Positions 100 to 50,777 of a stretch of DNA of 64,000 bases are shown here, piece by piece. Location: positions 114,860 to 178,859 of the forward strand of contig DRFQ01000001.1 in NCBI GenBank assembly GCA_011050465.1, read 5' to 3'. The position numbers were made by a program, and so were the translations under genes. The stretch's first letter is position 1. Every line of letters begins with the position of its first letter. The stretch comes from Candidatus Nealsonbacteria bacterium (GTDB taxonomy: Bacteria > Patescibacteriota > Minisyncoccia > Minisyncoccales > RBG-13-36-15). Under the pieces are notes generated by a model. The model was not told the origin of the DNA, made no database searches, and saw only the letters and a list, made by a program, of their open reading frames with translations.

Positions 100-1167
100 T
101 TATTTTTTCCATAAAACTTTCTTTAGAAAAGATTTTACCTCTGTTGGTTTAATATTTTGAATAAATTTCCCCTTTTTAAAAATTGCGGCTTTCTTGTTTT
201 CCATTCCTACGATCGCCAAATCTACTTCCCGAGCTTCTCCTAATCCGTTAACAATACAACCCATTATTGCGATTTTAAGGGGTTTTTCTTCAAATTTATC
301 GGAAAAACCTTCAATATATTTTACAATATCTTCGACTGGAATTTTAGTCCTGGCGCAGGTTGGACAGCTAATAATCGTTAGTCCTCGGTCTCTTAGTCTT
401 AAGCTTTTTAAAATTTCCCAGCCAACTTTCACTTCTTCAATGGGCGAACCGCTCAAAGAAATCCTAATGGTATCGCCAATGCCTTCTAAGAGTAAACTGC
501 CAATACCAATGGAAGATTTGACGATTCCTGTTCTTGCCCTTCCGGCCTCGGTAATTCCTAAATGAAGCGGCCAATTCCCTCTGCCAGCCAAAATCTTATA
601 AGCTCTAATAGTGGTTAAAACATCAGTTGCTTTTAAAGAAACTACTATATCTTTAAATTTCAGCTTCTCTAAAAATCTAATTGACCTCATTGCAGATTCA
701 ACTAAAATTTCAGCTGTAATCTTTTCTCGATATTTTTTTAATAAATCTAATTCCAAAGAACCGCTATTGATCCCTATCCTTATTGGAATATTCTTCTTCT
801 TAGCTTTTTCAACTATCGCCTTTACTTTCTCTTTGTCGCCTATATTGCCCGGGTTAATTCGAATCTTATCGGCTCCCTGATTTATTGACTCAATGGCTAA
901 TTTATAATCAAAGTGAATATCAACAACTAAAGGAATATTTATTTGTTTTTTTATTTTTCTTATTGCTTTGGCTGATCTCATATCCGGCACCCCAACCCGT
1001 ACTATTTCGCAACCTGATCTTTCTAGCTCTTTAATTTGTCTTACTGTCGCTTTTACGTCTTTAGTTGCGGTATTGGTCATTGACTGAACAGAAATAGGAT
1101 TTTTACCGCCAATTTTTACATTGCCTACTTTTATTATTCTAGTTTTTCTTCTGTTTATCTTTTGCAT
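100..1167 (-). CDS. ispG: 4-hydroxy-3-methylbut-2-en-1-yl diphosphate synthase (IspG/GcpE)
   Basis: 355 aa; N-terminal 'RRKTRIIKVGNVKIGGKNPISVQSMTNT' and the TIM-barrel region are typical of GcpE. Confidence 0.85.
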   Translation of the reverse strand: MQKINRRKTRIIKVGNVKIGGKNPISVQSMTNTATKDVKATVRQIKELERSGCEIVRVGVPDMRSAKAIRKIKKQINIPLVVDIHFDYKLAIESINQGADKIRINPGNIGDKEKVKAIVEKAKKKNIPIRIGINSGSLELDLLKKYREKITAEILVESAMRSIRFLEKLKFKDIVVSLKATDVLTTIRAYKILAGRGNWPLHLGITEAGRARTGIVKSSIGIGSLLLEGIGDTIRISLSGSPIEEVKVGWEILKSLRLRDRGLTIISCPTCARTKIPVEDIVKYIEGFSDKFEEKPLKIAIMGCIVNGLGEAREVDLAIVGMENKKAAIFKKGKFIQNIKPTEVKSFLKKVLWKK

Positions 1168-1168
1168 A

Positions 1169-1355
1169 CCCCGTAGGAAATTAAATATTTTCCGTTGTTA
1201 TATTAAGACCTTTGGATATCTCCATAATTATTGTTATTTACATAATCAAGGGTTTTTGAAGGGAAAATATTTGAAAATGTCTATGTCCCAAGGAAATCTA
1301 ATATTGAACGCGCCATCTTGTCTTATCCACGAAAACCCTCTTGTTTCCTACGGGG
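1169..1355. mobile_element. MITE-like repeat, copy A (TIR CCCCGTAGGAAA ... TTTCCTACGGGG)
   Basis: Perfect 12-bp terminal inverted repeats; about 187 bp; AT-rich interior. Left end starts 2 bp after the ispG ATG and the right TIR contains the ispH stop codon. Shares both ends and internal blocks with copy B at 11081-11272. Confidence 0.6.
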
Positions 1356-2187
1356 CATAGCTTTTTAATTTTTGAATTACTTCTTTAATCAACCAATCGG
1401 GAGTAGATGTGCCAGTGGCTATCCCTAATGTTTTGACATTCAAAAACCGTTTCTTTTTTAATTGGCTTGCGTTTTCAATATGATAAACTGGTTTTCCAAC
1501 TGCTTTGGCAATTTCTACCAGCCTATTAGTATTAGCACTGGTTTTCGACCCAATAATTAACAATAAATCTACTCTTAAGGCTAATTCTTTTAGCCCTTCT
1601 TGATAGGCTGAAACACTTGGGCAAATGGTATTATAAAATTTAAGATTTTTAAATCTCTTCTTAAGTACTCTTATAATTTCTTTAACTTTTACTGGATTCT
1701 GAGTAGTCTGGGCTATTATTGCTAAAGACTTATTTTTTATTTCTAGCCTAAAGGCCTCTTCTTCACTATCGATAATGATTCCTCTTCTTTTTATAACTGC
1801 CTGAATTGATCTGATTTCTTTGTGTTCTTTGTCGCCAATAATAATTATCTGGTTTCCTTTCTCGTGAAGATCTTTCGTTAAGTCTTGAACATTTTTTACT
1901 AAAGGACAGGTCGCATCAACCATTTTAATGCCCATCTCCTTTATCCTTTGCAGGACTTCTGGATCCTCTCCATGAGTAGGAATGATTATCACACCACTTT
2001 TTGCTTCATCTAAAGAATTAATAAATTCTACGCCTGATTCTTGAAGTTTTCTTATAACGCTTTCGTTGTGAACCAAAGGGCCCAACACCTGACAAGGTCT
2101 TACTGCTTTTGACGTCTTTAATGCTAAATTAAAAGCTCTTTTTACCCCAAAACAAAATCCTACCTTTGTAGCTAAAATTATTTCCAT
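1348..2187 (-). CDS. ispH: 4-hydroxy-3-methylbut-2-enyl diphosphate reductase (IspH/LytB)
   Basis: 279 aa; 'ATKVGFCFGVKRA' and 'DATCPLVKNV' conserved Cys regions of LytB. Confidence 0.85.
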   Translation of the reverse strand: MEIILATKVGFCFGVKRAFNLALKTSKAVRPCQVLGPLVHNESVIRKLQESGVEFINSLDEAKSGVIIIPTHGEDPEVLQRIKEMGIKMVDATCPLVKNVQDLTKDLHEKGNQIIIIGDKEHKEIRSIQAVIKRRGIIIDSEEEAFRLEIKNKSLAIIAQTTQNPVKVKEIIRVLKKRFKNLKFYNTICPSVSAYQEGLKELALRVDLLLIIGSKTSANTNRLVEIAKAVGKPVYHIENASQLKKKRFLNVKTLGIATGTSTPDWLIKEVIQKLKSYAP

Positions 2188-2262
2188 AAACAGTAATTTT
2201 TCAAATTTTAATTGGTACTCCTTTTACACCTCTTGTTCTTATTATAGAATAAATAGAGATTT

Positions 2263-3342
2263 ATGAATAACGATTTAATTGAAATTGACGGATCTATTGG
2301 TGAAGCTGGCGGCCAAATATTAAGGACAGCTGTGGCTTTGGCGGCAGTAACTAAAAAACCCTGCCATGTATTTAATATTCGAGAGGGCAGGCCAAAGCCG
2401 GGGTTAGCAACCCAACATCTTTTGGGAATTCAGGCCTTAGCTCGGCTCTGTGATGGAAAATTAGAAGGAGATTATCTGGGTTCAGAAGAAATTAAATTCT
2501 ATCCAGGTGAAGTTTACAGAGGCCGGGCCTCTGTTAATATTACTACTGCAGGAAGTATAGCTTTGGTTTTGCAAGCTTTAATTTTGCCGGCTTTGTTCGC
2601 CCCAGAACCAATTAAAATTTATTTTGACGGTGGATCTACCGACACCTTTTTCTCTCCAACCATTGACCATTTCCGCTATGTATTTTTAAAAATCTTAGAA
2701 AAGATGGGGATGAAAATAGAGATAAATATAATCAGACGAGGTTTTTATCCTGAAGGTGGTGCAAAAGTTGAAGTTATAGTTCATCCCCTCCTTCGGCAAG
2801 CCCGCCTGCCGGCGAGGCAGGGTTCCGGCGGGCAGGCCTCTAAACTAAACAGTGTGAATTTAATTGAAAGAGGTAAGCTTAAAAAAATTACAGTAACTTC
2901 AGGCGCTTCAGAATTTTTACAAGACAAAAAGGTAGCTGAAAGGCAATTAGCTGGAGTAAAAGAAATTTTAGGAAAATTAAAATTGTCCCTTGAAGAAAAA
3001 ATTGAATATTATCAAACTTCCTGTCCGGGAAGCCAAATCTGCTTAATTGCTGAATTTAAAAATACAGTCATTGGGACTGATAATTTGGGGAAATTAGGGA
3101 AAAGAGCTGAAGATGTCGGCAAAGAAGCTGCTTTAGAATTATTAAAAGAACAAAAATCTGAAGCTTGTTTAGATAAACATTTAGCCGACCAAATTTTACC
3201 CTATATGGCTCTTGCCAAAGGCAAATCCCAAGTAACCGTCTCAGAAATAACCGATCACTGCAAAGCCAACATCTGGGTAATTGAAAAATTCATTGATGGA
3301 AAGTTTAAGATAGATGGTAATTTAATATCTTGGAGTCCATAA
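2263..3342 (+). CDS. rtcA: RNA 3'-terminal phosphate cyclase
   Basis: 359 aa; N-terminal 'IEIDGSIGEAGGQILRTAVALAAV' RtcA signature. Confidence 0.8.
   Translation: MNNDLIEIDGSIGEAGGQILRTAVALAAVTKKPCHVFNIREGRPKPGLATQHLLGIQALARLCDGKLEGDYLGSEEIKFYPGEVYRGRASVNITTAGSIALVLQALILPALFAPEPIKIYFDGGSTDTFFSPTIDHFRYVFLKILEKMGMKIEINIIRRGFYPEGGAKVEVIVHPLLRQARLPARQGSGGQASKLNSVNLIERGKLKKITVTSGASEFLQDKKVAERQLAGVKEILGKLKLSLEEKIEYYQTSCPGSQICLIAEFKNTVIGTDNLGKLGKRAEDVGKEAALELLKEQKSEACLDKHLADQILPYMALAKGKSQVTVSEITDHCKANIWVIEKFIDGKFKIDGNLISWSP
2785..2840. repeat. GC-rich palindromic mini-insertion in frame within rtcA
   Basis: About 56 bp at roughly 75% GC inside an AT-rich gene. Near-palindrome gcccgcctgccgg / ccggcgggcaggc. 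Encodes 'LLRQARLPARQGSGGQAS', an extra loop relative to typical RtcA. Confidence 0.45.
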
Positions 3343-3364
3343 AAAATATTGTCTGTTGGGATAA

Positions 3365-3392
3365 AAAAGCCCGCGCTAAAGCGCGGGCTTTT
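3365..3392. terminator. Bidirectional intrinsic terminator
   Basis: aaaagcccgcgctaaagcgcgggctttt: perfect GC stem with flanking A/T runs, between convergent genes. Confidence 0.7.
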
Positions 3393-3414
3393 ACAATCTC
3401 TTGCTAAAAATTTA

Positions 3415-3470
3415 CGGAACTTGCCCCGTGGTCCTGAGGTCATCGAAGGATTTTACGGGGAAAACCGAAA
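3415..3470. repeat. Short copy of the GC-rich 'GTCCTGAG ... TCGAAGGATTT' repeat family
   Basis: ccccgtggtcctgaggtcatcgaaggattttacgggg; CCCCG/CGGGG ends; same core as the 26020-26060 and 19897-19960 copies. Confidence 0.35.
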
Positions 3471-3514
3471 AGTAGAATAGTCAGTCAATAAATGTAATAG
3501 CAGAGAGGATTTGG

Positions 3515-4165
3515 TTATTCAGGAAGCTTAAAACTGTTCACAACAGTCTCAAATTCTTCTCGAAACTCATATTTTCCGTCTTTTACTTTTGGTGCGCCTG
3601 TGAGCCATAGACGGTAAATGTATTTTTTGCCGTAGAGAATATAGGTTTCACCCCAAGATGTTTCACCTTTAAGATCCTCAATATCAAAGATTACTTGGCC
3701 AGGAATATTATTAATGGTTGTATTTTGTACTTTTCTTGTCAGGATTGCTCCATATGATGTTTTTTCTTGGTCTATCTCTTCATACTTAAACGTCTCTCTT
3801 TCTGAAAGATTATGCACATTTAAATAGACGAGGAATGTACCTGCCCAAATGGTTATCACTCTCCCTGGTGACTCTGGAAATCCTTCATATAAAGTCCATT
3901 GACTAGGGTAAGCTAGAGAATAAAAGTATTCCGGGCTTTCATATCGAATTGTTTGTGGTATGGGGGTTAGTGTCACTTCCTCTGGGACTTCTATTGCTGG
4001 TGGCTTTACTTCGGGTAGTCTTATTTCTATTTCAGCTAATCTTGTTTCCAGGCCTGCTATCCATAAATAGTAATAACCTAAAGTCCCTCCGCCAACAATG
4101 GCAGCCAAAACAACAACAATTAAGATGTATTGCAGATTAATTTTACCTTGGGTAATGAATGGCAT
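3515..4165 (-). CDS. Hypothetical membrane-anchored protein (N-terminal TM helix, extracytoplasmic domain)
   Basis: 216 aa; single N-terminal hydrophobic helix 'LIVVVLAAIVGGGTLGYYYLWIAG'; no recognised domain. Confidence 0.5.
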   Translation of the reverse strand: MPFITQGKINLQYILIVVVLAAIVGGGTLGYYYLWIAGLETRLAEIEIRLPEVKPPAIEVPEEVTLTPIPQTIRYESPEYFYSLAYPSQWTLYEGFPESPGRVITIWAGTFLVYLNVHNLSERETFKYEEIDQEKTSYGAILTRKVQNTTINNIPGQVIFDIEDLKGETSWGETYILYGKKYIYRLWLTGAPKVKDGKYEFREEFETVVNSFKLPE

Positions 4166-4182
4166 ATTGGGTTATTATAGCA

Positions 4183-4207
4183 TGTTTAACACCCGACGTT
4201 AAACATC
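4183..4207. promoter_or_regulatory. Palindromic operator-like site ATGTTTAAC-N7-GTTAAACAT upstream of the 3515-4165 gene
   Basis: Perfect 9-bp inverted repeat about 20 bp upstream of the start codon. A near-identical palindrome lies upstream of the 40744 gene. Confidence 0.35.
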
Positions 4208-4272
4208 TTTACCACTTTTTTGATTATTCATATTTTCATTCTCCAACGATTTCTGGCTGGCCCCGTTAGAAA

Positions 4273-5367
4273 TTAATCAGTAATTTCTAAGCGGGGCTGG
4301 AAGAATTGATTAATTCTAATTTCGATTGGGATGACTTCTTTTAATTCCGCGCGGAACGAGGAATCAAGGTTCTGAGGGACTTTACTCCTCACGGTTCTTA
4401 TTTTACCGTCTTCAATCACAACTTTCAACATTAAGCCCTGCATTGTTTCTTTTGAAAAACCCTGGTCGAAAATAAAATTTCCTAAGGAATAGGCGATATA
4501 ACCATCTTTATAGCGTTCGATTTCTTGAACAACATGGGGATGATGGCCAATTATTAAATCTGCCCCAGTATCAATAGCTAGACGGGCGAAGTATTTTTGT
4601 TCTGAAGTTGGTTGGGATTTATATTCCTCGCCAAAATGCATTGAAACAACGATTAAATCTGCCTGATTTTTAGCTTTTTTTATATCTTCTTCTAATCTTT
4701 CTTCTGTCAGCCAGCTAATTCCTGAACGTTTTCCTGTAGCTTCCCAATTTTTAGAACCTAAATTAGTATAAGCTAAAAAGGCAATTTCTATATCATTAAT
4801 CTCTTTTATTATCGGCGAGTAAGCCTCTTTTTCGCTAAATCCTCCGCCAACATAATCTATTCCGGCCTCTCTTAGTCTCAAAAAAGTATCTTCCATTGCT
4901 TCCCGGCCATAATCAAAAATGTGATTATTAGCAACTGATAAAATATCAAAACCAGCATAATTGAATCCTTCGATTGCTTTAGGATTTGTCCGAAAAGAAT
5001 AAATTGAGCCGACTTTGCTGCCTTTATCAGAAATTGGGCTTTCTAAATTTCCGAATAAAATATCGGCCTTCTCTAAGTCTTCAGCAATTTCCAAAAATGG
5101 GAATTTCCAATCTCCTTTGCCGTATTTATTTATCGACCATTCCACTCCCCGATTAAGCATAATATCTCCGACGAAAAATAAAGTTATTTCTGAGGGTGGC
5201 TTTTTAAAAGATATTAATACTTGAGCTTGAGAAATTTCTGAAATTTCCTTTTCAAATTTCTGGAATTCAACAATAAAAAAGCTACTACCAAAGGCAGCGA
5301 TTAGTAAAATAATCAAAATAAAAATGAGTAAGTTTTGATACTTTTTTTTGAAAAAAAGAACGTGCAT
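4273..5367 (-). CDS. CapA/PgsA-family metallophosphatase (poly-gamma-glutamate capsule synthesis protein family)
   Basis: 364 aa; N-terminal TM; 'GNLESPIS', 'VANNHIFDYG', 'IIGHHPHVVQ' CapA motifs. Followed by a long hairpin terminator at about 4228-4266. Confidence 0.7.
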   Translation of the reverse strand: MHVLFFKKKYQNLLIFILIILLIAAFGSSFFIVEFQKFEKEISEISQAQVLISFKKPPSEITLFFVGDIMLNRGVEWSINKYGKGDWKFPFLEIAEDLEKADILFGNLESPISDKGSKVGSIYSFRTNPKAIEGFNYAGFDILSVANNHIFDYGREAMEDTFLRLREAGIDYVGGGFSEKEAYSPIIKEINDIEIAFLAYTNLGSKNWEATGKRSGISWLTEERLEEDIKKAKNQADLIVVSMHFGEEYKSQPTSEQKYFARLAIDTGADLIIGHHPHVVQEIERYKDGYIAYSLGNFIFDQGFSKETMQGLMLKVVIEDGKIRTVRSKVPQNLDSSFRAELKEVIPIEIRINQFFQPRLEITD

Positions 5368-5486
5368 GTTACTTTCTTAGTATAACAAAAAACCCCACGC
5401 GTGAAGCACGGGGTTGTCATACGCAAAAACCCCGCGTCTGACGCAAGGCTTTTTTGACTAACGGCAAAGCTGATTGCTTTATCTAT

Positions 5487-5849
5487 TTAGCAGGTCAAAT
5501 GAAAAAGGCCAATAACTTTATCTTGTTCTCCTTCTTCCTCTTCTGATTCTTCGTTTATTACATTAAAAGTTTTAGTAGCTTGCTCGGTTAAGTCAATTAT
5601 CAATTCAATCCCTTTCGATTTTATCTCGTTTTTAGCGGCTTCGGTAACTTCAGCCATCCCAGATTCCCCGGTCCCAATAATAATAGTGTCTGGATTTTGT
5701 TTTATTGCCCTTTTTATGTCTTCCACGCCTATAATATGACCTTCTTTTCTCCACCATTTCAAAACTTCGTCCGTCCATCTAAGCTCAACGTCGTGATTAT
5801 AAATTTTTCTATTCATAGTGATTGAACCAAATTTATACTCTTCAATCAT
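5487..5849 (-). CDS. Mth938-like (DUF498) domain protein
   Basis: 120 aa; 'FGSI...GTGESG' core and C-terminal 'HLTC' resemble the Mth938 family as recalled; not verifiable without a search. Confidence 0.45.
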   Translation of the reverse strand: MIEEYKFGSITMNRKIYNHDVELRWTDEVLKWWRKEGHIIGVEDIKRAIKQNPDTIIIGTGESGMAEVTEAAKNEIKSKGIELIIDLTEQATKTFNVINEESEEEEGEQDKVIGLFHLTC

Positions 5850-5853
5850 ATTT

Positions 5854-6636
5854 TTACTTTAGCTCAATTAAAGCAATTTCTGGGGGAGCGTTAAATCTAA
5901 TTGGCAAAAGAGTTGTTCCAATGCCTCGGCTTACATAAAGAAAAGTAGAATTCTCTTCAAAAAGCCCACTTTTATATTTCTTATCGTATTTTAAGGGCAG
6001 TAAAAGATTGGTGATAAAAGGAATATTTATTTGACCTCCGTGGGTATGGCCAACAAGAACTAGGTCCACACCTTTTCCCTTCACTTTTCTAAAAATCTCC
6101 GGAGAATGGGCAATTAATATTTTTGATGCACCAGCTTCAATGCCTGCCATTGCTTTTTCAACGTCATCGTAGCCTTCATGTGGATCATCGACGCCAATAA
6201 GGTAAACCCCGTTAGAAATCGAAAGCTTTCTAATGGGGTGAATAAAATCTTCATTTCTCCTTAATATTACTGCTTCGTTCTCAAGGATTTTAATTCCGCT
6301 TTCTTCCAAAAGATTATTTATAATTTTAAATTGTGGATGATAATGATCATGGTTTCCTAATACTCCGAAAACCTTTTTTGAATAACTTTCGGAAAGTTTT
6401 TTCCAAAAATTTTGACAAGACTCTAGATCTTTAGTCGTCTCATTTATAAAATCGCCGGTGATGAAAATAAAGTCTGGATTTAATGATTGTAAAATTTCTA
6501 AAACTTTATTCTCTTTTTCACTAAAATTCTTTGAATGCAAATCAGAAAGATGCGCGATTTTAACTCCTCTAAAAGACGGGGGTAGGTTTTTTATTTCTAT
6601 CGAAAATCTCTCGATTTTAATAGTTTTTGATTGCAT
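5854..6636 (-). CDS. Calcineurin-like metallophosphoesterase
   Basis: 260 aa; 'ITGDFI', 'GNHDHY', 'GHTHGGQ' phosphoesterase motifs. Confidence 0.7.
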   Translation of the reverse strand: MQSKTIKIERFSIEIKNLPPSFRGVKIAHLSDLHSKNFSEKENKVLEILQSLNPDFIFITGDFINETTKDLESCQNFWKKLSESYSKKVFGVLGNHDHYHPQFKIINNLLEESGIKILENEAVILRRNEDFIHPIRKLSISNGVYLIGVDDPHEGYDDVEKAMAGIEAGASKILIAHSPEIFRKVKGKGVDLVLVGHTHGGQINIPFITNLLLPLKYDKKYKSGLFEENSTFLYVSRGIGTTLLPIRFNAPPEIALIELK

Positions 6637-6689
6637 AAAAAAATCATAAATCCTAATAAAATAGCGGAAAACCAGATAGGCAATTAACC

Positions 6690-7646
6690 TTATTGAAATT
6701 TAAGGCTGGAATATTTACCACAACGGTCATTCCACATAGAAACTACTTTTCCTTCAATTCTGGCTTCAATGACCTCACATAAGTTGGGACAACCTTTACA
6801 TTGAAAAGAGGTACACTTTATGTCTTGATCGGAAACTCCCCAGCCCCTAAATTTGGTTTTCCCTTGGATATTTTCTTTGGCTAAAAGGGCTGCCCCCAAG
6901 GCTCCCATTACCGTGTTATGTTTTGGCACAATAACTTCTTCTCCTAAAACGTTATTAAAAGCTTTTCTCATTCCCAAATTTTCTGAAACCCCGCCTAAAA
7001 AAACTATTGGAGGTAAAATCTTTTTTCCTTTAGCTATATTGGCCAAAAAATTTCTGGCCAAACCGTGGCAAAGACCAGCAACAATATCTTCTCTGGAATG
7101 ACCTATCTGCTGTTTGTGAATCATATCAGATTCAGCAAAAACCGTGCACCTGGAACCTACGATTGTTGGTTGTTTTGATTTTAAAGCAATTTGGCCGAAT
7201 TCTTCTATTGGAATTCCCAACCTAAAAGCTTGGGCGTCAAGAAAACTTCCGGTACCCGCAGCACAAATAAGATTCATGGCAAAATCAACCACCACTCCGT
7301 TTTCTAAAATAATAATTTTCGAATCTTGTCCACCAATTTCAATAACTGTTTTGACTTCAGGAATAAAAAAGTTTACCCCCTTGGCGTGGGCAGAAATCTC
7401 ATTCTTAACTAAATCGGCTCCAACTACTACTCCGGCTAAATATCTGGCAGATCCTGTTGTTCCTACTCCGGTAATTTCGATATTGTGAGGAGTCTTTCCT
7501 CGAAGGCGTTTCAAACCATTCTGAATCGCCCTAATAGGATTACCTTCCGTTCGAAGATAAAGAGCGCACAACACATGGTTATTTTCGTCAATTAAGGTCA
7601 ATTTTGTTGAAATAGAACCAACGTCAACGCCAAGATAAGTATTCAT
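6690..7646 (-). CDS. CoA-substrate-specific enzyme activase (BadF/BadG/BcrA/BcrD ATPase family) with Cys-rich C-terminal extension
   Basis: 318 aa; 'LGVDVGSISTKLTLID' actin-like ATPase phosphate-1 motif and 'EIGGQDSKII' typical of HgdC-type activases; C-terminal CxxC...C cluster. Confidence 0.65.
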   Translation of the reverse strand: MNTYLGVDVGSISTKLTLIDENNHVLCALYLRTEGNPIRAIQNGLKRLRGKTPHNIEITGVGTTGSARYLAGVVVGADLVKNEISAHAKGVNFFIPEVKTVIEIGGQDSKIIILENGVVVDFAMNLICAAGTGSFLDAQAFRLGIPIEEFGQIALKSKQPTIVGSRCTVFAESDMIHKQQIGHSREDIVAGLCHGLARNFLANIAKGKKILPPIVFLGGVSENLGMRKAFNNVLGEEVIVPKHNTVMGALGAALLAKENIQGKTKFRGWGVSDQDIKCTSFQCKGCPNLCEVIEARIEGKVVSMWNDRCGKYSSLKFQ

Positions 7647-7712
7647 AATAAAGATAAAATTATTGATTACCTGCTCCGCACTGTTTCGAAGGAATTAGTG
7701 CGTGGTTAATTA

Positions 7713-8810
7713 TTACTTTGATTTCATTAAATCGACGAAAGCTTCTAATCTGGTTTGGATCCCTGCTTCGGCCGTCTGTTCATCTAAAGAGATAGAAAGA
7801 AATGGAAGTTTTTTTTCTTGGCTAATTTTTTGTAAGATTGGCCTAACGGTAACTTCCGGCATACAACCGAATGGTAATAAGTGAATAACACCGTCGAATC
7901 CCTTTCTAGCATATTCCAGTATTTCTTCAATTGCCTGACGACCGTGGCCGCCAACCGTTGTTTTTAGGTACGGATTTACTTTCCTTTGAAGTAACCATTC
8001 ATTCCAGGGAGGAAAACCGCCCTTTAAGTGCTGAGTAAGGTTTAATTTCCTATGCACCGTAATGTTCATCTCGCCTAATTTTTTATCTAAATCAAAATTG
8101 ACCCCTCCATCGATAATGGTATAAATTTCTCCGACTATCCCTACGCTCAAAATCTTTCGATTTTGATCTATTTTAATTTCGGAGAATTTTCCCCAAGTCT
8201 CTTTTTTAAGTTCAGATATTTTTTTTAAACTAGTGGTCTGCGTTAGTTTTTTTAGGGCCGTATTTAAAACTTTGTCTGTCTGACCCTTTTCTTTTTCTCT
8301 TGGTCTAAAGTATTGAGCTTTTTCTTCCAGTTTTTCAATAAAATTAATTTCTTTAAAAAAAACGCGGACTGCCTCGAGAAGTTTCCAAAATGAAATTTTG
8401 TTTGATTTTTTTATTTCTAAAATCCGGGAAAGAAGGTTTTGGGAATTGAAATTTAAAACTTTTATCTTGAAACCGGCCTCTCTTAAGGCTTTTTCTTGAA
8501 TTATCCAATAATATCTCAACCTACAACTCCCTCCAAGATTTTCCCACATTATAACGGTATCGGCTCCTTTTCTTATGGCTGGGAGATAGTTTCCAATATT
8601 AACCTTCAGTGGAAAACAAAAAAGTTCTGGAGAAAGTTTTACCCCTTCTTCAATGACTTTTGGGTTGGTTTTTTCCGGTAAGATAACTTCGAAGCCTAAT
8701 TTTCGAAGCAAGGTTTGAAAAGCTATGGTGTAATTTCCCCAATCTGCAAAAGTAATTTTCATAAACTTTATGGATTGCCTAATGTTTACATACAGCAAAT
8801 TTATATTCAC
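7713..8810 (-). CDS. HgdB/DUF2229-like partner protein of the activase (2-hydroxyacyl-CoA dehydratase-like subunit)
   Basis: 365 aa; C-terminal 'GCMPEV...DEQTAEAGIQTRLEAFVD' motif of dehydratase D-component-like proteins. Confidence 0.5.
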   Translation of the reverse strand: MNINLLYVNIRQSIKFMKITFADWGNYTIAFQTLLRKLGFEVILPEKTNPKVIEEGVKLSPELFCFPLKVNIGNYLPAIRKGADTVIMWENLGGSCRLRYYWIIQEKALREAGFKIKVLNFNSQNLLSRILEIKKSNKISFWKLLEAVRVFFKEINFIEKLEEKAQYFRPREKEKGQTDKVLNTALKKLTQTTSLKKISELKKETWGKFSEIKIDQNRKILSVGIVGEIYTIIDGGVNFDLDKKLGEMNITVHRKLNLTQHLKGGFPPWNEWLLQRKVNPYLKTTVGGHGRQAIEEILEYARKGFDGVIHLLPFGCMPEVTVRPILQKISQEKKLPFLSISLDEQTAEAGIQTRLEAFVDLMKSK

Positions 8811-8912
8811 CCCGCACCTAATCTTTGTAATAAATTCGCCTTAGACTTATAGTGGAGGCGAAAACCGTAAACCATAAGAGATTAGATGCGGGGCGGATAT
8901 GCGGATTTTTAA

Positions 8913-9827
8913 CTAATGTAATGTGTCGAAAAAAGCTTCTAATCTAGTTTGGAGGCCGGCCTCACCGGTGTGTTCGTCAATTAAAAGATACAAGAAAGGA
9001 ATCTTTTTGTTTTTAAATTCTTTTTCGACGAATTCTTTTAAAACTGCATCGCAACCACATTGAAAAGCAGATATTTCAATTGCTCCCGATATACTATCTT
9101 TAGCAATACCTTTAACCTGAGTCAATATTTCCTGCCCGAATTCCCAATGAAATTTAGGTGAAATATTTTCTTGATTTCCTGGTGATTGCCGGACAGGAAC
9201 TTCGTCAATAAATATAACCTCTGCCCCTAGATCAATAATCTTCTTTTTTATGCCTAAGTTAATATAATCATCATATAAATTATAAGGGTGGCTAACAATA
9301 ATTATTTTTTTCTTTTGAGATTGGATTTTCTTTAAATAGCCTTCTTCAATTCTTAATTCTTCTTTTTTTTCTTTCAAGAAAGCAGCCTTAATGGCTATTT
9401 TAACTAATTCTTTTTCCTTGCCAATCTTCCTGCTGAATTTCATTAAAATATCTTCGAGATTGGATTTGTCCAAATCAAGCCAGGGCGATAGAAGAGGAGT
9501 TTTTATCAATAAAGAAAACAAATCGGGTAGGGCGAAAAATTTGGGACAATATTCTAATTTTGCTTCACTTTTCAGTAATCTAGGGATAAAAATAAAATCT
9601 ACTTTCCCGTCTAGCCATAAAATGTGGCCGTAAAGAACTTTAACAGAAAAACAAGACTCTGGATCTGCCGCCTTTATTCCGATTTCAATAATCTCTTTAT
9701 TGCTCTCTGGGGAAAGAAGAACTTGGAAACCAAGCTTTTCGAAAAAGACTGGCCAGAAAAAAGGTTTTTTCCAATAGAATAAGGCTCTTGGAATACCAAC
9801 CGTCGGTCTTTTTTGTTTGGACTCTTT
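8913..9827 (-). CDS. HgdB-like paralogue (second dehydratase-like subunit)
   Basis: Same C-terminal 'CGCDAV...DEHTGEAGLQTRLEAFFD' motif. Start trimmed to the internal ATG at 9827 (MKESKQKRP...) because the longer ORF to 9923 would overlap the EndoQ-like gene. Confidence 0.5.
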   Translation of the reverse strand, partial: KESKQKRPTVGIPRALFYWKKPFFWPVFFEKLGFQVLLSPESNKEIIEIGIKAADPESCFSVKVLYGHILWLDGKVDFIFIPRLLKSEAKLEYCPKFFALPDLFSLLIKTPLLSPWLDLDKSNLEDILMKFSRKIGKEKELVKIAIKAAFLKEKKEELRIEEGYLKKIQSQKKKIIIVSHPYNLYDDYINLGIKKKIIDLGAEVIFIDEVPVRQSPGNQENISPKFHWEFGQEILTQVKGIAKDSISGAIEISAFQCGCDAVLKEFVEKEFKNKKIPFLYLLIDEHTGEAGLQTRLEAFFDTLH

Positions 9828-9831
9828 CATG

Positions 9832-11079
9832 TTAAAAAAGGGTTTTTTGGCGAGATGAAAGTTTTTTTCCTTCCTCTCCAAAAATCTTAATTTTCCCGTA
9901 AACACCATCGTAACCAGGTTCAATTTGAATTTTTCCTCCCCTAACCTTTACGATGCCTTCGCCGATTTCAGGTAAAGTGGCGGCTCTAAGGTCTGATTCG
10001 GAAACTTCAAGTAAAATATTCAATTCGTTACCGAATTTTTTAATCAGATTATTATATTCTTGAATTCCTTGCTTTGTTCCGGGTGAAACGCCCAGGGCAT
10101 CGGCAATTATTTCTTCTAGAGGAATAAGGCTCTTGAAAGGAATTGCATTTTCTGGTTTAAATCCTGCTTTTCTGTCGGCCAACTGCTCAACTCGATTTAA
10201 AACCCCAATTGTTAAAGGTTTTCTGCAGTTCGGGCAAATATTATTATACTTTTTTGTTTCTTGGGGATGAATATTAACCTGACAGTTTCGATGACCATCG
10301 TAATGGTATTTTCCTTCTTGAGGAAAGAATTCAATTGTGTAAAGAAATTTTTGAGGGTTTCTGGATTTTATAGCCTCTATAATTGCAGGATAACTAATTT
10401 CGGTATCAAAAACATTTGCCTCCCGGCCTATTTTTGCCGGACTATGGCTGTCGCTATTTGAAATCAAGGTAATCTTGTCTAGGGCTGACAATCGCCAGTT
10501 CATTTCAGGGTCTGAAGACAATCCTGTTTCTAGGGCGAAAATATATTTTGAATATTCCTCGAAACACTCTTCAATTGAGTCAAAACCAGAACGAGAACCA
10601 AAGAGGCTAAACCAGGGCGTCCAAATATGTGCCGGCACTATGAAACAACTCTCTGATACATCTAGAACAATCTTCGCCAACTCTTTGGCGTCTAGACCCA
10701 GAATTGGCCGGCCATCGGATTTTAAATTACCGATCCAACCAAGATGAGTATTAATTTTTTCAACGGCCTCAAAGGAAGGAGCAAAAACTATAATATGAAT
10801 CTTCCGAACTCTTTCTTTTTTAGAATAGATGCAGCTAATTTCGGTAGTCAGAATAAATCTTGTTTCTGAATGATTAGTTTTTAGCCGAAATAAACTTTCT
10901 TCAGCCGGCTCCAGCTTCTCTTTTAAGTTTTTAAACCATTCAGGATGAGTGAAATCCCCTGTGCTTAAAACCCTAATTCCCTTTATCTTTGCCCACCTAT
11001 CTAGGTTCTCCAGGTCCATATTCTTGGAAGTGGCTCGAGAATATTTAGAATGAAGATGAAAATCAGCAATAAATTTCAT
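9832..11079 (-). CDS. PHP-domain nuclease, endonuclease-Q-like (TIGR00375-type)
   Basis: 415 aa; N-terminal 'ADFHLHSKYSRA' PHP metal-binding motif and C-terminal zinc finger 'CPNCRKPL'. Confidence 0.5.
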   Translation of the reverse strand: MKFIADFHLHSKYSRATSKNMDLENLDRWAKIKGIRVLSTGDFTHPEWFKNLKEKLEPAEESLFRLKTNHSETRFILTTEISCIYSKKERVRKIHIIVFAPSFEAVEKINTHLGWIGNLKSDGRPILGLDAKELAKIVLDVSESCFIVPAHIWTPWFSLFGSRSGFDSIEECFEEYSKYIFALETGLSSDPEMNWRLSALDKITLISNSDSHSPAKIGREANVFDTEISYPAIIEAIKSRNPQKFLYTIEFFPQEGKYHYDGHRNCQVNIHPQETKKYNNICPNCRKPLTIGVLNRVEQLADRKAGFKPENAIPFKSLIPLEEIIADALGVSPGTKQGIQEYNNLIKKFGNELNILLEVSESDLRAATLPEIGEGIVKVRGGKIQIEPGYDGVYGKIKIFGEEGKKLSSRQKTLF

Positions 11080-11080
11080 A

Positions 11081-11272
11081 CCCCGTAGGAAGTTAAATAT
11101 TTTCCGTTGTTATTATATTTAGACCCTCTAAACAATTTTCTAATCATAGTGATTGATATAAAAAGGTTTTTGGATAGAAAATATTTGAGTTTTTATATAT
11201 GCCTCGAAGAAACTTACTTTTTATATTCTGTCTCGTTTTATCGACGAAAACCTTCTGTTTTCCTGCGGGCAT
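11081..11272. mobile_element. MITE-like repeat, copy B (TIR CCCCGTAGGAAG ... TTCCTGCGGGC)
   Basis: Same ends and shared internal blocks as copy A (ccccgtaggaaRttaaatattttccgttgttat; cgacgaaaaccYtctgtttYcctRcgggcata). Again begins 2 bp after the ATG of the adjacent minus-strand gene; junction 'cataccccgtagga' identical in both copies. Confidence 0.6.
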
Positions 11273-11339
11273 ATTTTTCCCTCTTTCATTTATATCATTT
11301 CTTGCATTAAAAAGAAATAAATAAAACCCGTTTTAATAA

Positions 11340-11880
11340 CGGGCGGAGGAATAGCTTTGTTTGGTCTTCTTTAAGGCTCTTGGCTGCTTTTTCTCGTAAC
11401 TCTTTCTTCAAACCATCTTAGGCAAGTTAAAATTATAATCGCAAAAGGTAACAAAAATGGCGGTCCAGTAAAGTTTTACGGCTACGGCCACCCCAATGCC
11501 CGCAGCAACCCAAAGACCAGTAGTAGTGGTTAGGCCTTCAACATGAAATTGTCGATAGATAATTAGACCGGCCCCAATAAAACCCACCCCCAAGACAATT
11601 TAACCAATTATCCGCGAAGGATCAAAATTAACACCAGACTTATCCCAAAACATTGCAGAAGCTTAAAAAGCAACAATTACAAATAAAGCTGCGCCCAGAG
11701 AAACCAGACTATACGTTCTCAATCCGGCTTCTTTTCTTTTATACTCCCGCTCTAGTCCCACTAGAGCTCCAAGAAAAGCAGCAAGTAGTAATTGAAAAAC
11801 AATTTGAATTTAGGGATTTTCTAAAAACCCAGCCACATATTAAACACTAATTTTAATCACTAATTATCGCGAATAAATTA
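11340..11880 (-). pseudogene. Degraded MgtC/SapB-family gene
   Basis: Minus-strand translation gives 'DPSRIIG*IVLGVGFIGAGLIIYRQFHVEGLTTTTGLWVAAGIGVAVA', the conserved MgtC core, interrupted by an in-frame TAA and further stops upstream. Only 61-aa and 65-aa ORF fragments survive. Confidence 0.5.
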
Positions 11881-11922
11881 TCAGCAGTTACTCGTGATTG
11901 AAATCCGTGCTTCTATTAGTGA

Positions 11923-12183
11923 TTACACTTTATAAACCGAATAACCCTCTCGAATCTTTTGTTCCACCTTTAAGCCAACAGATTCTCCAGTTTTAGCCTC
12001 GTCGACTTTTTGGTGTTCAACTTCCATCGATTCAACGCTCTGAGTAAAATCAATTTCTCCGCCAACTATTCGGATGTTATCGCCAGCCTTTAAAGTATCG
12101 GAAAGTTTAATTACCGCTACTCCAATTTTTCCAAAATAGTGAGTAATTTTACCTATTAATTGGCCTTCAATTTTTTCTGGCAT
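11923..12183 (-). CDS. Hypothetical small beta-rich protein
   Basis: 86 aa ORF with plausible composition; no motif recognised. Confidence 0.4.
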   Translation of the reverse strand: MPEKIEGQLIGKITHYFGKIGVAVIKLSDTLKAGDNIRIVGGEIDFTQSVESMEVEHQKVDEAKTGESVGLKVEQKIREGYSVYKV

Positions 12184-12312
12184 ATTTTTTTTAAAAATTA
12201 GCTATTATCTCGTCGACCTCGGGCCTTGTTCTGGTGTTTCTCTTTGTCAATAAGTTTAATTAATTTTTTGACTAGTTTTTTAGGATCTTTCTCATAAATA
12301 TTTTTTTTACCG

Positions 12313-12370
12313 CCCCCGAAAAGGGCCAGTTATTGTTCACGAAAATCCTTGTGTCTTCCTACGAGGCATA
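12313..12370. repeat. Internally deleted/partial copy of the CCCCGTAGGAA MITE
   Basis: cccccgaaaagggccagttattgttcacgaaaatccttgtgtcttcctacgaggcata matches the 3' arm of copy A (cacgaaaaccctcttgtttcctacggggcata). Confidence 0.4.
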
Positions 12371-12720: not shown

Positions 12721-12790
12721 TTATTGTACCACGAGGGGAGTCGAACCCCTGTCTCAGGCTCCGGAGGGCTACATAGCACTTGTCCCGCAC
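12721..12790 (-). tRNA. tRNA-like 3' fragment / pseudo-tRNA
   Basis: Minus strand carries a canonical T-arm (AGGGG-TTCGACT-CCCCT) followed by the acceptor 3' strand CGTGGTA-C. No complementary 5' acceptor strand, D-arm or proper anticodon arm can be found upstream. Confidence 0.3.
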
Positions 12791-12801
12791 TAAATTTAAT
12801 G

Positions 12802-12875
<74 letters not shown>

Positions 12876-17876: not shown

Positions 17877-18082
17877 TAATTTGTTTTTTCTTTGTTCTCG
17901 GTGGATATGTTTAGAAACTTTTGATACAACTCATTTATTAATTCTTCCTGTTTTTTCAAACTTAAGACACTCCGGCGAATCCGGGCCTTTTCTCTGCGAA
18001 TAAATTTCCTGAGACTTTTTGGAAGTTTTTTTTGTTTCATAAATAAAAAAGTGATTTAACAATGTAGCAATTTAACAATTTT

Positions 18083-28459: not shown

Positions 28460-28464
28460 CTCTT

Positions 28465-28510
28465 AAATTGCTAAACTGTTAAATTGTCAAATTGTTAAAC
28501 TGGGAATAAT
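28465..28510. promoter_or_regulatory. Array of 8-bp WAAWTGTT direct repeats upstream of mutM
   Basis: cttaaattgctaaactgttaaattgtcaaattgttaaactg: five consecutive units. The same unit recurs at 43330-43410, 49440-49480, 59370-59410 and 18050-18080. Confidence 0.3.
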
Positions 28511-28552
28511 AAAATTTCTTTTATCGACAAAACAATTTAATAATGTGGCCAT

Positions 28553-31812: not shown

Positions 31813-31819
31813 ATTTTTT

Positions 31820-32554: not shown

Positions 32555-32560
32555 AATTTT

Positions 32561-34089: not shown

Positions 34090-34130
34090 GGTTTTAATTT
34101 TTAAAAGTTTTTAATTTTCTCGACCTTTAC

Positions 34131-35101: not shown

Positions 35102-35115
35102 GTTTTAATTTATTT

Positions 35116-50033: not shown

Positions 50034-50039
50034 AAAAAT

Positions 50040-50777
50040 ATGGATTTTATAATTACTTTTTTCAATACATTTTTATATAGACCGTTATTTAATCTTTTGG
50101 TTTTGCTTTATCAATATTTGCCCGGACACGATTTCGGAATAGCGGTTATCGCTTTAACCGTTTTAGTAAGAGTCGTTTTTTATCCTTTGAACCTCAAGGC
50201 CATTAAATCACAGAAACTTCTTCAAGAGTTACAGCCCAAAATTCAAGAAATTCAAAGAAAATTTAAAAACGATAAGGAAAAACTAACCAAAGCCACTATT
50301 GAGCTTTATCAAAAAGGTAAGGTCAATCCTTTGTCTGGATGTTTGCCGATTTTAATCCAATTCCCAATTTTAATTGCTCTTTTCTGGGTATTTCAAAAAG
50401 GACTTCGAGTTGAAGAAATGGTTAATCTTTACAGTTTCGTTCCTAATCCCGGGCAAATTGTCCCTACTTTTTTGGGGATTTTAAATTTAGCCCAGCCTTC
50501 GGCTGTTTTGGCAGTCCTTTGCGGTTTCGCCCAGTTCGTTCAGACAAAAATGTTGACCCCTAAAACCCAGACTAAAAAAGGCAAGGCCGATTTTTCTACG
50601 ATGATGCAAAAACAAATGCTTTATTTTTTTCCAATTTTTACAGTTTTTATCCTTTGGAACCTTCCCTCTGCCATTGCTCTTTACTGGCTGGTTACCTCCC
50701 TTTTCTCGATTTTCCAGCAATATTTAATCTTTAGACCCAACACTAAAACTTCACTTAATGCAGAGCAGAAGACATAA
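50040..50777 (+). CDS. yidC: Membrane protein insertase YidC (short form)
   Basis: 245 aa; 'GCLPILIQFPILIALFWV' conserved TM and basic C-terminus. Confidence 0.8.
   Translation: MDFIITFFNTFLYRPLFNLLVLLYQYLPGHDFGIAVIALTVLVRVVFYPLNLKAIKSQKLLQELQPKIQEIQRKFKNDKEKLTKATIELYQKGKVNPLSGCLPILIQFPILIALFWVFQKGLRVEEMVNLYSFVPNPGQIVPTFLGILNLAQPSAVLAVLCGFAQFVQTKMLTPKTQTKKGKADFSTMMQKQMLYFFPIFTVFILWNLPSAIALYWLVTSLFSIFQQYLIFRPNTKTSLNAEQKT

What the first reader, a model, noticed from the sequence alone, without database searches (positions are those of the whole stretch)
1169..12370. MITE family with CCCCGTAGGAA terminal inverted repeats, each full copy abutting the ATG of a gene
Two full copies (1169-1355, 11081-11272; about 190 bp; 12-bp TIRs; shared internal blocks) and a shortened copy (12313-12370) are present. 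In both full copies the element begins exactly 2 bp after the start codon of a minus-strand gene (ispG, the EndoQ-like gene) with the identical junction 'cat-a-ccccgtagga'. In copy A the other TIR contains the ispH stop codon. The element therefore constitutes the whole intergenic region and must supply the promoter and 5' UTR of the downstream gene. The gene finder called 79-aa and 67-aa ORFs inside them, which are probably artefacts.
Basis: seen in the sequence. Interest (0 to 1): 0.65.

Follow-up and report, generated by a model that had tools for sequence, protein, structure and literature searches.

The report
Miniature transposon inserted at start codons
A 125-215 bp non-coding mobile element, common in small-genome Patescibacteria, inserts by duplicating the four bases T-ATG, so it usually sits directly in front of a gene's start codon in one fixed orientation and must either carry or tolerate the signals that express that gene.

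Summary
Copy A (1169-1355), copy B (11081-11269) and a remnant C (12331-12366) belong to one repeat family.

Among 134 oriented full copies:
- 93 have an exact 4-bp direct flank repeat, consensus TATG. Only 1 has a 5-bp repeat.
- 79 have the same "proximal" arm ending 0-1 nt before the ATG of a long ORF.
- The reverse orientation (CATA) occurs about once.

Empty orthologous sites show that the element is mobile. Three relatives have ispH and ispG overlapping with no element. Two window genes (start codons at 50040 and 4165) are unoccupied sites that carry the element in other genomes.

No transposase partner, Rfam family or publication was found. How the downstream gene stays expressed is inferred, not shown: either an outward promoter in the proximal arm, or unmasking of the hairpin-buried AUG by translation of the distal arm. 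I class it as a new variant of a known kind.

The parts
1165..1168 (-). Proximal copy of the 4-bp target duplication of copy A (TATG on the gene strand). Bases 1165-1167 are the ispG start codon.
   Evidence: Family statistics.
1169..1355 (-). Copy A, a full element of the ~185-nt subfamily. The proximal arm is at 1169-1200 and the distal arm at about 1320-1355.
   Evidence: nhmmer E = 1e-55.
1183..1193 (-). Conserved AAATATTTTCC block of the proximal arm. It is complementary to the internal block at 1262-1272.
   Evidence: 9 near-invariant pairs, no covariation.
1262..1272 (-). Internal inverted copy (GGAAAATATTT on the + strand) of the proximal-arm block.
1348..1350 (-). ispH stop codon (TAG), supplied by the distal terminal repeat of copy A.
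   Evidence: The same arrangement occurs in 8 other family members. Relatives without the element have ispH overlapping ispG.
1356..1359 (-). Distal copy of the 4-bp target duplication of copy A.
11077..11080 (-). Proximal target duplication of copy B. Bases 11077-11079 are the start codon of the PHP-type gene (9832-11079).
11081..11269 (-). Copy B, a full element with a decayed distal terminal repeat (TTCCTGCGGG).
   Evidence: E = 5e-41.
11270..11273 (-). Distal target duplication of copy B. Its ATG, preceded by AGAGGG-N6, now opens a 42-codon upstream ORF that runs into the element.
12331..12366 (-). Copy C, a remnant consisting of the distal arm only (profile positions ~3-48).
   Evidence: E = 4e-7 to 1e-4.
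12367..12370 (-). CATA flank of remnant C.
50039..50042 (+). Unoccupied target site: TATG at the start codon of gene 50040-50777. The orthologous site in locus L022 carries a full element flanked by TATG.
   Evidence: flanks 79% identical over 203 nt.
4163..4166 (-). Unoccupied target site: TATG at the start codon of gene 3515-4165, preceded by TGCTATAAT-N8. Orthologues in L046, L083 and L107 carry an element exactly here.

Best explanation
SHOWN
- A, B and C are members of a large family of non-autonomous DNA transposons (MITEs) of Patescibacteria. Elements are 125-215 bp and non-coding.
- The ends are 11-13 nt terminal inverted repeats, CCCCGTAGGAA(A)...(T)TTCCTACGGGG. The two sub-terminal arms differ:
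  - the 'proximal' arm reads ...CGGAAAATATTTAATTTCCTACGGGG;
  - the 'distal' arm reads CCCCGTAGGAAAC.AAGGGTTTTCGTTGATAA....
- Insertion duplicates exactly 4 bp, usually T-A-T-G.
- In about 60% of copies that ATG is the start codon of a gene, and the proximal arm always faces the gene. The duplication therefore leaves the ORF intact and leaves a second ATG at the far end.
- Insertions are recent in some genomes and recur independently at the same start codons.

INFERRED
- A trans-acting transposase that makes 4-bp staggered cuts moves the element. It was not found. The type is guessed to be DDE; an IS1380-like family is only a lead recalled from memory.
- The genes behind the element include housekeeping genes, so the element must be compatible with their expression.
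  - My preferred reading (about 40%) is that the proximal arm carries outward expression signals, that is, a weak promoter giving a very short-leader or ~25-nt-leader mRNA. This would explain the fixed orientation and the need to lie against the ATG.
  - The main alternative (about 30%) is that the gene is read from run-through mRNA. There the two ends plus the duplicated UAUG form a long stem that buries the start codon. Ribosomes translating the distal arm, either the upstream gene or the short ORF MPRRK... opened by the distal ATG, would melt the stem and unmask the codon.
For: Family size and host range:
- The closest named IspG homologues are Patescibacteria/Parcubacteria.

Target duplication:
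- 93/134 have an exact 4-mer at both flanks and 1/134 a 5-mer.
- Rare variants co-vary on both sides (TAAA/TAAA, TAAG/TAAG, CTTG/CTTG, CTCG/CTCG).
- Consensus is T .85, A .91, T .82, G .81, with no conserved base outside it.

Start-codon abutment:
- A long ORF starts at offset 0-1 in 79/134, and at 3-8 nt in 10 more.
- 78/82 TATG/CATG-flanked copies open an ORF with a median length of 240 aa.
- Reconstructed sites have an in-frame stop a median ~6 codons upstream.
- Pfam profiles of 9 of 10 sampled downstream proteins begin at residues 1-32. They are unrelated housekeeping functions: ATP synthase a, signal peptidase, RecO, UppP, dCTP deaminase and others.

Chance expectation:
- Only about 25 of 332 TATG sites in the window are start codons, 35 are other intergenic sites, and there are 70 intergenic TATA sites.

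Mobility:
- Empty sites for L008 (in L019/L067) and L022 (in the window at 50040), and for L046/L083/L107 (in the window at 4165).
- ispH and ispG overlap by 4-17 nt with no element in relatives whose IspG is 92% and 79% identical. A 75% relative carries a different subfamily at the same codon.
- Copies in one contig are 96-98% identical.
- Head-to-tail tandems are joined by TATG.

Expression models:
- The start-codon unpaired probability is 0.06 in run-through RNA, against 0.47 at reconstructed empty sites, 0.44 for a transcript starting at -25, and 0.38 when the distal arm is held open.
- The distal ATG opens an ORF of at least 5 codons that covers the whole distal repeat in 67/67 cases. The upstream gene stops at the repeat's TAG in 8 cases.
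- A TANNNT hexamer (TAATTT) lies 10 nt before the ATG in 72/74 copies. A strong TATAAT-like box lies at -38..-33 in about 55%.
- These genomes are SD-poor (14%) and use TGnTATAAT-N6-8-ATG leaderless-type promoters.
Against: - No autonomous copy with a transposase was found in 1.1 Mb of retrieved loci or in viral contigs, so the mobilising enzyme and its family are unknown.
- All copies were retrieved with a motif from the proximal arm. Conservation of that arm is therefore partly an ascertainment effect, although 22 copies found only through their end repeats show the same polarity.
- Promoter model: there is no -35 or TGn. A simple sigma-70 scan finds nothing on the gene strand in A or B. The A at position 2 of the TAATTT hexamer is not kept in variant subfamilies.
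- Unmasking model: it rests on thermodynamic prediction only, and it does not by itself explain the fixed orientation.
- The helices are almost invariant, so there is no covariation support for an RNA role.
- The bases just upstream of the ATG in the element (UUCCUACGGGGU) are unlike the A-rich native context, so insertions may simply lower expression and be tolerated.
Confidence: 0.8

Rival explanations
1. The element is moved by a single-strand HUH (Y1) transposase, as IS200/IS605-derived palindromic elements or REPINs are. Such an enzyme inserts 3' of an asymmetric tetranucleotide (here TATG) in one orientation. The fixed orientation would then be mechanistic rather than selected.
For: - The target is an asymmetric 4-mer, and orientation relative to it is almost absolute: TATG in 59 or more copies against CATA in about 1, TAAA 5:0 over TTTA, and TAAG 5:0 over CTTA.
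- The end repeat contains GTAG, the tetranucleotide recalled (from my own knowledge) as the head of REP sequences.
Against: - Both flanks carry the same 4-mer and co-vary across independent insertions, including sibling copies in one locus (L008: TAAA/TAAA and TAAG/TAAG). That is a true duplication, which HUH transposition does not make.
- The ends are true terminal inverted repeats extending to about 33 nt, not sub-terminal hairpins.
Confidence: 0.08
2. The start-codon position and orientation come from active targeting by the transposition machinery, for example recognition of open promoter complexes at leaderless genes. The element would then have no expression function and would be merely tolerated.
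For: - 95% of TATG-flanked copies are at start codons, although start codons are only about 40% of the non-disruptive TATG sites.
- TANNNT boxes ending 6-9 nt before the distal ATG occur in 28/66 copies, so many targets are leaderless-type promoters.
- Independent insertions recur at the same start codons.
Against: - No base outside the 4-mer is conserved at target sites.
- 45/68 insertions are operon-internal, behind a co-directional gene that ends within 80 nt, where no transcription start is expected.
- Essential-looking genes lie behind the element, so some provision for expression is needed whatever the targeting.
Confidence: 0.2
3. It is not mobile DNA but a conserved structured leader RNA (riboswitch-like or protein-binding) that regulates the genes downstream.
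For: - It always lies 5' of genes on the gene strand.
- Copy A folds into a stable closed structure (z = -3.2).
- The conserved helices P1 and AAAUAUUUU/AAAAUAUUU are seen in 48 aligned copies.
Against: - Exact 4-bp flank duplications, empty orthologous sites and tandem copies show insertion.
- The downstream genes are functionally unrelated.
- There is no Rfam match even at relaxed thresholds.
- The helices are invariant, the covariation term is only -0.16 kcal/mol, and the interior is poorly conserved.
Confidence: 0.03
4. The two copies are a local segmental duplication or a chance similarity in AT-rich DNA.
For: Only three copies are present in the 64-kb window, and A and B are only 71.5% identical.
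Against: - Similarity stops exactly at the 4-bp flanks.
- Hundreds of copies exist in other genomes in front of unrelated genes.
Confidence: 0.01

Closest known systems
Correia elements (CREE/NEMIS) of Neisseria, the classic bacterial MITEs
   Same: - Both are ~100-190 bp non-coding elements with terminal inverted repeats and a short target duplication.
- Both are many-copy, often lie 5' of genes, are co-transcribed, and form long hairpins.
- Correia elements carry functional promoters (review PMC3184786).
   Different: - Correia elements duplicate TA (from my own knowledge) and show no start-codon rule or fixed orientation.
- The present family duplicates 4 bp (TATG), regenerates the start codon, and occurs in Patescibacteria.
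- There is no sequence similarity between the two.
Neisseria REP2 repeats and Borrelia IR-A/IR-B
   Same: These are repeats found immediately upstream of many genes. They contain a promoter, a ribosome-binding site and the ATG itself, and so in effect are a repeated 'start region' (PMC3184786).
   Different: - REP2 has no terminal inverted repeats, and its mode of spread is unknown.
- Here the spread mechanism is visible (inverted ends plus a 4-bp duplication), the ATG comes from the target rather than the element, and a promoter or RBS is not demonstrated.
IS elements with outward promoters that activate the adjacent gene (e.g. ISEcp1 / IS1380 family upstream of bla genes)
   Same: - They act polarly on the gene next to one specific end.
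- IS1380-family elements are recalled to have ends beginning CC and 4-5 bp duplications. This comes from my own knowledge and was not tested.
   Different: - Those are autonomous 1.5-2 kb elements with a transposase and no start-codon precision.
- No such partner was found here.
IS200/IS605-derived palindromic elements and REPINs
   Same: They are small non-autonomous elements with asymmetric tetranucleotide targets and strict orientation.
   Different: They make no target duplication and lack terminal inverted repeats. Here the duplication is exact and co-varies on both flanks.
Rickettsia palindromic elements (RPE)
   Same: They are small palindromic mobile repeats in reduced genomes that insert at positions that keep genes functional (listed in PMC3184786).
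   Different: RPEs insert in frame inside coding sequences and are translated (from my own knowledge). This family sits just outside the ORF, at the start codon.

Membership tests
MITE (non-autonomous DNA transposon) | Short and without coding capacity | tested here: met
   Elements are 125-215 nt. The plus-strand ORFs have no Pfam hit. The alignment is rich in indels.
MITE (non-autonomous DNA transposon) | Terminal inverted repeats | tested here: met
   CCCCGTAGGAA / TTCCTACGGGG. 115/124 copies have the far repeat within 2 mismatches, and 13 pairs are near-invariant in 48 copies.
MITE (non-autonomous DNA transposon) | Target-site duplication of fixed length | tested here: met
   An exact 4-bp repeat in 93/134 copies and a 5-bp repeat in 1/134. 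Rare 4-mers co-vary on both flanks.
MITE (non-autonomous DNA transposon) | Many dispersed copies within and between genomes | tested here: met
MITE (non-autonomous DNA transposon) | Presence/absence polymorphism at orthologous sites (empty sites) | tested here: met
   L008 against L019/L067. L022 against window 50040. L046/L083/L107 against window 4165. ispH-ispG in L158, L160 and L163 against copy A.
MITE (non-autonomous DNA transposon) | A cognate autonomous element with the same ends that encodes the transposase | tested here: inconclusive
   No end pair 0.4-4 kb apart encloses an ORF in 1.1 Mb of loci, and there were no viral hits. Whole genomes could not be scanned.
IS1380-like (or any named DDE family) derivative | Ends and duplication length match a named transposase family | not testable with these tools
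   There was no access to an IS reference library. The resemblance (CC ends, 4-bp duplication) is recalled from memory only.
IS200/IS605-derived element / REPIN | No target duplication; the target tetranucleotide lies on one side only | tested here: not met
   Both flanks carry the same 4-mer and co-vary.
IS200/IS605-derived element / REPIN | Sub-terminal hairpins instead of terminal inverted repeats | tested here: not met
   The inverted repeats start at the first base of the element and extend imperfectly to ~33 nt.
Riboswitch or other cis-regulatory RNA family | Match to a curated RNA family | tested here: not met
   Rfam 15 gave nothing at gathering scores or at relaxed E-values.
Riboswitch or other cis-regulatory RNA family | Secondary structure supported by compensatory changes | tested here: inconclusive
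   Both conserved helices are almost invariant, and the covariation term is -0.16 kcal/mol.
Riboswitch or other cis-regulatory RNA family | Association with functionally related genes | tested here: not met
   The downstream genes are unrelated housekeeping genes.
Neisseria REP2-type 'start region' repeat | Lies immediately upstream of ORFs, with the ATG at its end | tested here: met
   79/134 copies at offset 0-1.
Neisseria REP2-type 'start region' repeat | No terminal inverted repeats | tested here: not met
   This family has perfect terminal inverted repeats. REP2 has none.
Neisseria REP2-type 'start region' repeat | Contains a promoter and a ribosome-binding site | tested here: inconclusive
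   Only weak -10-like boxes and no SD. The sigma-70 scan was negative for A and B.

The most novel reading that the evidence does not exclude
The element is a mobile 'start-codon cassette'. Its machinery actively seeks T-ATG start codons in one orientation. Its two ends then clamp the start codon in a stem, so that the gene is translated only when ribosomes run over the distal arm, either from the upstream gene or from the 5-20-codon ORF MPRRK... opened by the duplicated ATG. It would be a transposable translational-coupling device that has rewired the initiation of dozens of housekeeping genes per genome across Patescibacteria.
Probability: 0.2. Interest if true: 0.85.

Novelty: new variant of a known kind. 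Interest (0 to 1): 0.62.

Why it matters
- Patescibacteria have very small, tightly packed genomes and are thought to have little room for mobile DNA. This family shows one way a selfish element can persist there: it lands on the start codon, regenerates it through the target duplication, and faces the gene with a fixed arm.
- If the proximal arm carries expression signals, the element spreads a common promoter or leader in front of unrelated housekeeping genes. That could impose common regulation on them.
- If instead the hairpin gates the start codon, it would be a natural, transposable translational-coupling module.
- The family offers a visible mechanism for how 'start-region repeats' such as Neisseria REP2, whose mode of spread is unknown, might proliferate.
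- There are practical consequences. The repeats break short-read assemblies: two contigs holding ispG begin inside copy A. They also create spurious ORF calls.
- The conserved 30-nt end is a specific marker for these lineages in metagenomes.

Tried and rejected
- Rfam at gathering and relaxed thresholds found no family for the element.
- A sigma-70 and terminator consensus scan of A and B found no gene-strand promoter.
- The covariation analysis of 48 aligned copies was uninformative, because the helices are invariant.
- The search for an autonomous partner found nothing usable:
  - Every pair of ends 0.4-4 kb apart turned out to be neighbouring separate elements.
  - The one exception is window 11081-12366 (B's proximal end plus C's distal end, both flanked by CATA). 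It encloses a MgtC remnant and an 86-aa ORF, not a transposase.
  - The few unpaired ends were chance matches or copies with a decayed far end.
- A viral-contig scan with the end motif gave 0 hits.
- Eight literature searches found no description of this family or of start-codon-specific MITEs.
- A conserved peptide encoded by the element was rejected. The ORF from the distal ATG always begins MPRRK, because it reads the end repeat. After that, indels change the frame, and lengths scatter from 5 to 55 codons.
- GGGG as a Shine-Dalgarno sequence was rejected. It lies 1 nt from the ATG, and these genomes rarely use SD.
- Archaeal TATA-box/leaderless and BHB-intron ideas were dropped, because the host is bacterial and nothing supported them.
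- I did not fetch an empty site for copy B, to save a costly search.

Full report
**1. Observation**

The three stretches are present as described.
- Copy A (1169-1355) has perfect 11-nt inverted ends.
- Copy B (11081-11269) has one decayed end.
- Copy C is only a ~36-nt remnant of one arm (12331-12366).

A and B align at 71.5% over 200 nt (E = 4e-27). Profiles built later from the family hit A (E = 1e-55), B (E = 5e-41) and C, and nothing else in the window.

Pfam confirms IspG (100-1167, -), IspH (1348-2187, -) and a PHP-type protein (9832-11079, -). It finds nothing for the 79-aa and 67-aa plus-strand ORFs.

**2. The family is large and not private to this genome**

An exact search with 21 nt of the gene-side end (CCCCGTAGGAANTTAAATATT) returned two sets of hits:
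These came from freshwater and marine sediments and from the Hainich and Rifle aquifers.
- 33 stretches from about 14 MAGs. They are labelled Candidatus Nealsonbacteria, Liptonbacteria, 'Saccharibacteria' or Patescibacteria.

The window comes from a 385-kb JGI contig. Its IspG is closest to proteins named Patescibacteria/Parcubacteria.

Two short-read contigs that carry this ispG begin inside copy A, as expected for a repeat that breaks assemblies.

**3. Target duplication**

I paired ends and oriented 134 distinct full copies by their asymmetric arms.
- 93 have an identical 4-mer abutting both ends. Only one has an identical 5-mer.
- The consensus on the gene strand is T(.85) A(.91) T(.82) G(.81).
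- Rare 4-mers are the same on both sides (TAAA, TAAG, CTTG, CTCG, TTGA, TACA), including two sibling copies in one locus.
- No position outside the 4-mer is conserved.

This is the signature of a staggered 4-bp cut, not of a one-sided target as in HUH transposition.

**4. Start codons and orientation**

The arm ending ...GAAAATATTTAATTTCCTACGGGG lies 0-1 nt from the ATG of an ORF of at least 60 codons in 79/134 copies. In 10 more it lies 3-8 nt away.
- Of 82 TATG/CATG-flanked copies, 78 open a long ORF (median 240 aa).
- In reconstructed pre-insertion sites, an in-frame stop lies a median of about 6 codons upstream.
- Ten randomly sampled downstream proteins include a GT2 glycosyltransferase, a transketolase-type subunit, dCTP deaminase, signal peptidase I, FemAB, GalT, UppP, RecO and ATP synthase a. 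Their Pfam matches begin at residues 1-32. These ATGs are therefore real starts of unrelated housekeeping genes.
- The reverse orientation (CATA relative to the element) occurs about once. TAAA and TAAG also occur only in one orientation (5:0 each).

For comparison, the window holds 332 TATG sites on both strands. About 25 are start codons, 35 are other intergenic sites and 272 are coding. It also holds 70 intergenic TATA sites. The start-codon excess and the polarity therefore cannot come from the 4-mer preference alone.

**5. Mobility**

Joining the two flanks of each copy and searching the other loci gave clean empty sites.
- The L008 element is absent from orthologous DNA in L019 and L067, where the flanks are 88% identical and the 4-mer is single.
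- The L022 element sits at a TATG that is unoccupied in the window, at the start of gene 50040-50777.
- L046, L083 and L107 carry elements at the start codon of the orthologue of window gene 3515-4165. The window's own site reads TGCTATAAT-AACCCAAT-ATG, which is a leaderless-type promoter.

For copy A itself I fetched the ispH-ispG junction from relatives.
- Relatives with IspG 92%, 79% and 79% identical have ispH and ispG overlapping by 17, 4 and 11 nt, with no element. L160 reads ...AAAGAGT TATG CTTCTTAA.
- A 75% relative (L161) has a 432-nt gap at the same start codon. It holds an element of a different subfamily with another element nested inside.

So copy A split a formerly overlapping gene pair. 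ispH now ends three codons into the end repeat, at its TAG. The same start codon was hit independently in another lineage.

Two further observations fit ongoing activity:
- Copies within single contigs are 96-98% identical.
- Head-to-tail tandems are joined by TATG.

**6. Anatomy**

There are size classes of about 125, 150, 185 and 215 nt.
- All share the end repeats.
- All share the proximal block CGGAAAATATTTAATTTCC.
- All share an internal inverted copy, AAATATTTTC, about 70-80 nt away.
- All share a distal block, AAGGGTTTTCG, which is complementary to an internal AAAACCCTT.

RNAalifold on 48 copies predicts the end stem and the AAAUAUUUU/AAAAUAUUU helix. Both are nearly invariant, so there is no covariation for or against an RNA role. 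Rfam has no match.

No pair of ends at IS-like spacing encloses an ORF in 1.1 Mb of retrieved DNA. A viral-contig scan was empty. The transposase is therefore unknown.

**7. Context for expression**

These genomes rarely use Shine-Dalgarno sequences. Among 461 element-free genes with non-coding DNA upstream:
- 14% have an SD-like motif.
- About a fifth have a TANNNT box, often TGnTATAAT, ending 6-8 nt before the ATG. These are leaderless-type promoters.
- T precedes the ATG in about 45%.

Of 68 start-codon insertions with enough flank:
- 45 lie behind a co-directional gene ending within 80 nt.
- 8 of those genes end at the repeat's TAG, as ispH does.
- 8 insertions face a divergent gene.

The duplicated ATG at the distal end always opens a short ORF (MPRRK..., 5-55 codons, modes at 5 and 10) that covers the whole distal repeat.

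Because UAUG can pair with UAUG, the end stem extends over both ATGs. Predicted unpaired probabilities for the start codon are:

| RNA modelled | Unpaired probability |
|---|---|
| Run-through RNA (below 0.2 in 91% of copies) | 0.06 |
| Reconstructed empty sites | 0.47 |
| Transcript starting 25 nt upstream | 0.44 |
| Distal arm held single-stranded | 0.38 |

The proximal arm has TAATTT 10 nt before the ATG in 72/74 copies, and a strong TATAAT-like box at -38..-33 in about 55%. There is no -35 or TGn, and the consensus scan is negative for A and B.

**8. What is shown and what is inferred**

Shown:
- It is a MITE with 4-bp TATG duplications.
- It is mobile and recurrent.
- It is placed at start codons in one orientation, across Patescibacteria.

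Inferred:
- The transposase makes 4-bp staggered cuts and is probably DDE. An IS1380-like origin is only a recollection.
- The element is compatible with expression of the gene behind it.

I favour outward expression signals in the proximal arm (about 40%). Only an asymmetric function explains the polarity and the need to touch the ATG, and Correia elements and some IS elements provide precedent (PMC3184786).

Translation-dependent unmasking of the buried AUG is the main alternative (about 30%). The remaining probability goes to active targeting with mere tolerance.

**9. Comparison with what is known**

It passes every MITE criterion tested except the unfound autonomous partner. It fails the defining features of IS200/IS605-type elements and REPINs, of riboswitch-like leaders, and of Neisseria REP2, which lacks inverted ends.

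Functionally it is closest to two things:
- Promoter-bearing Correia elements.

The new points are the 4-bp TATG duplication that regenerates the start codon, the near-absolute polarity, and the host group. Eight literature searches found no prior description. That is absence from the searchable library only.

**10. Limits**

- All copies were reached through one exact 21-mer from the proximal arm. Proportions may differ in an unbiased census, although 22 copies found only through their end repeats behave the same way.
- Gene calls are simple ORF calls.
- RNA results are thermodynamic predictions.
- No expression data were available.

Noticed in passing
window 11408-11850 (-): A MgtC-family gene remnant. 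ORF 11408-11593 matches Pfam MgtC (E = 5e-12). The same frame continues upstream through two in-frame TAA codons (about 11665-11663 and 11602-11600). One of them falls where I recall MgtC homologues having Gln; this was not checked against homologues. It is probably a pseudogene decaying by CAA>TAA changes.
   Followed up: partly
window 11081-12366: Copy B's proximal end and remnant C's distal end are correctly oriented as one pair, and both are flanked by CATA. They enclose 1.29 kb holding the MgtC remnant, a terminator-like hairpin and an 86-aa ORF with weak EF-Tu-domain-2 similarity. This could be a composite unit, or a coincidence given the preferred target.
   Followed up: partly
window 12726-12778 (-): A tRNA-like fragment (Rfam tRNA 20 bits, E = 0.6, below threshold) lies just downstream of tRNA-Arg(CCG) at 12801-12875. 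It is perhaps a decayed tRNA.
   Followed up: no
window 18041-18084, 28463-28538, 43323-43424, 49407-49483, 59363-59418: Arrays of an 8-nt-periodic motif (TTAAATTG / ACAATGTA type), some directly upstream of start codons (e.g. genes ending at 28459 and 59366 on the minus strand, and 43410 on the plus strand). This is a second kind of repeat in front of genes, possibly a regulator-binding array.
   Followed up: no
whole window and loci L005-L157: - Genes rarely have a Shine-Dalgarno motif (14% of 461 element-free genes).
- About a fifth have TGnTATAAT-like boxes ending 6-8 nt before the ATG, which are leaderless-type promoters.
- T precedes the ATG in 27/55 window genes, so TATG start sites are abundant.
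   Followed up: yes
L161 2054-2499 and 806-992: In a relative (Ga0315289_10000008) the ispG start codon carries an element of another subfamily (proximal arm ...AACGGAAAATACTTTATTTCCTACGGGG) with a second element nested inside it. A third element lies 9 nt from the rtcA start codon. The corresponding sites in the window are empty.
   Followed up: partly
L005 3690-4003, L013 3422-3737, L017 558-871, L024, L121: A recurrent 212-nt composite. The first ~98 nt of one element (up to ...GGTAGA) are joined directly to a complete second element, giving two proximal-arm motifs 97-98 nt apart. Copies at different places in one contig are 97-98% identical, so the composite itself seems to transpose.
   Followed up: partly
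window 31800-35430: A cluster of paralogous minus-strand genes, with 70-300 nt direct repeats at 63-77% identity recurring at 400-1300 nt spacing. It looks like a tandem gene family and is unrelated to the finding.
   Followed up: no
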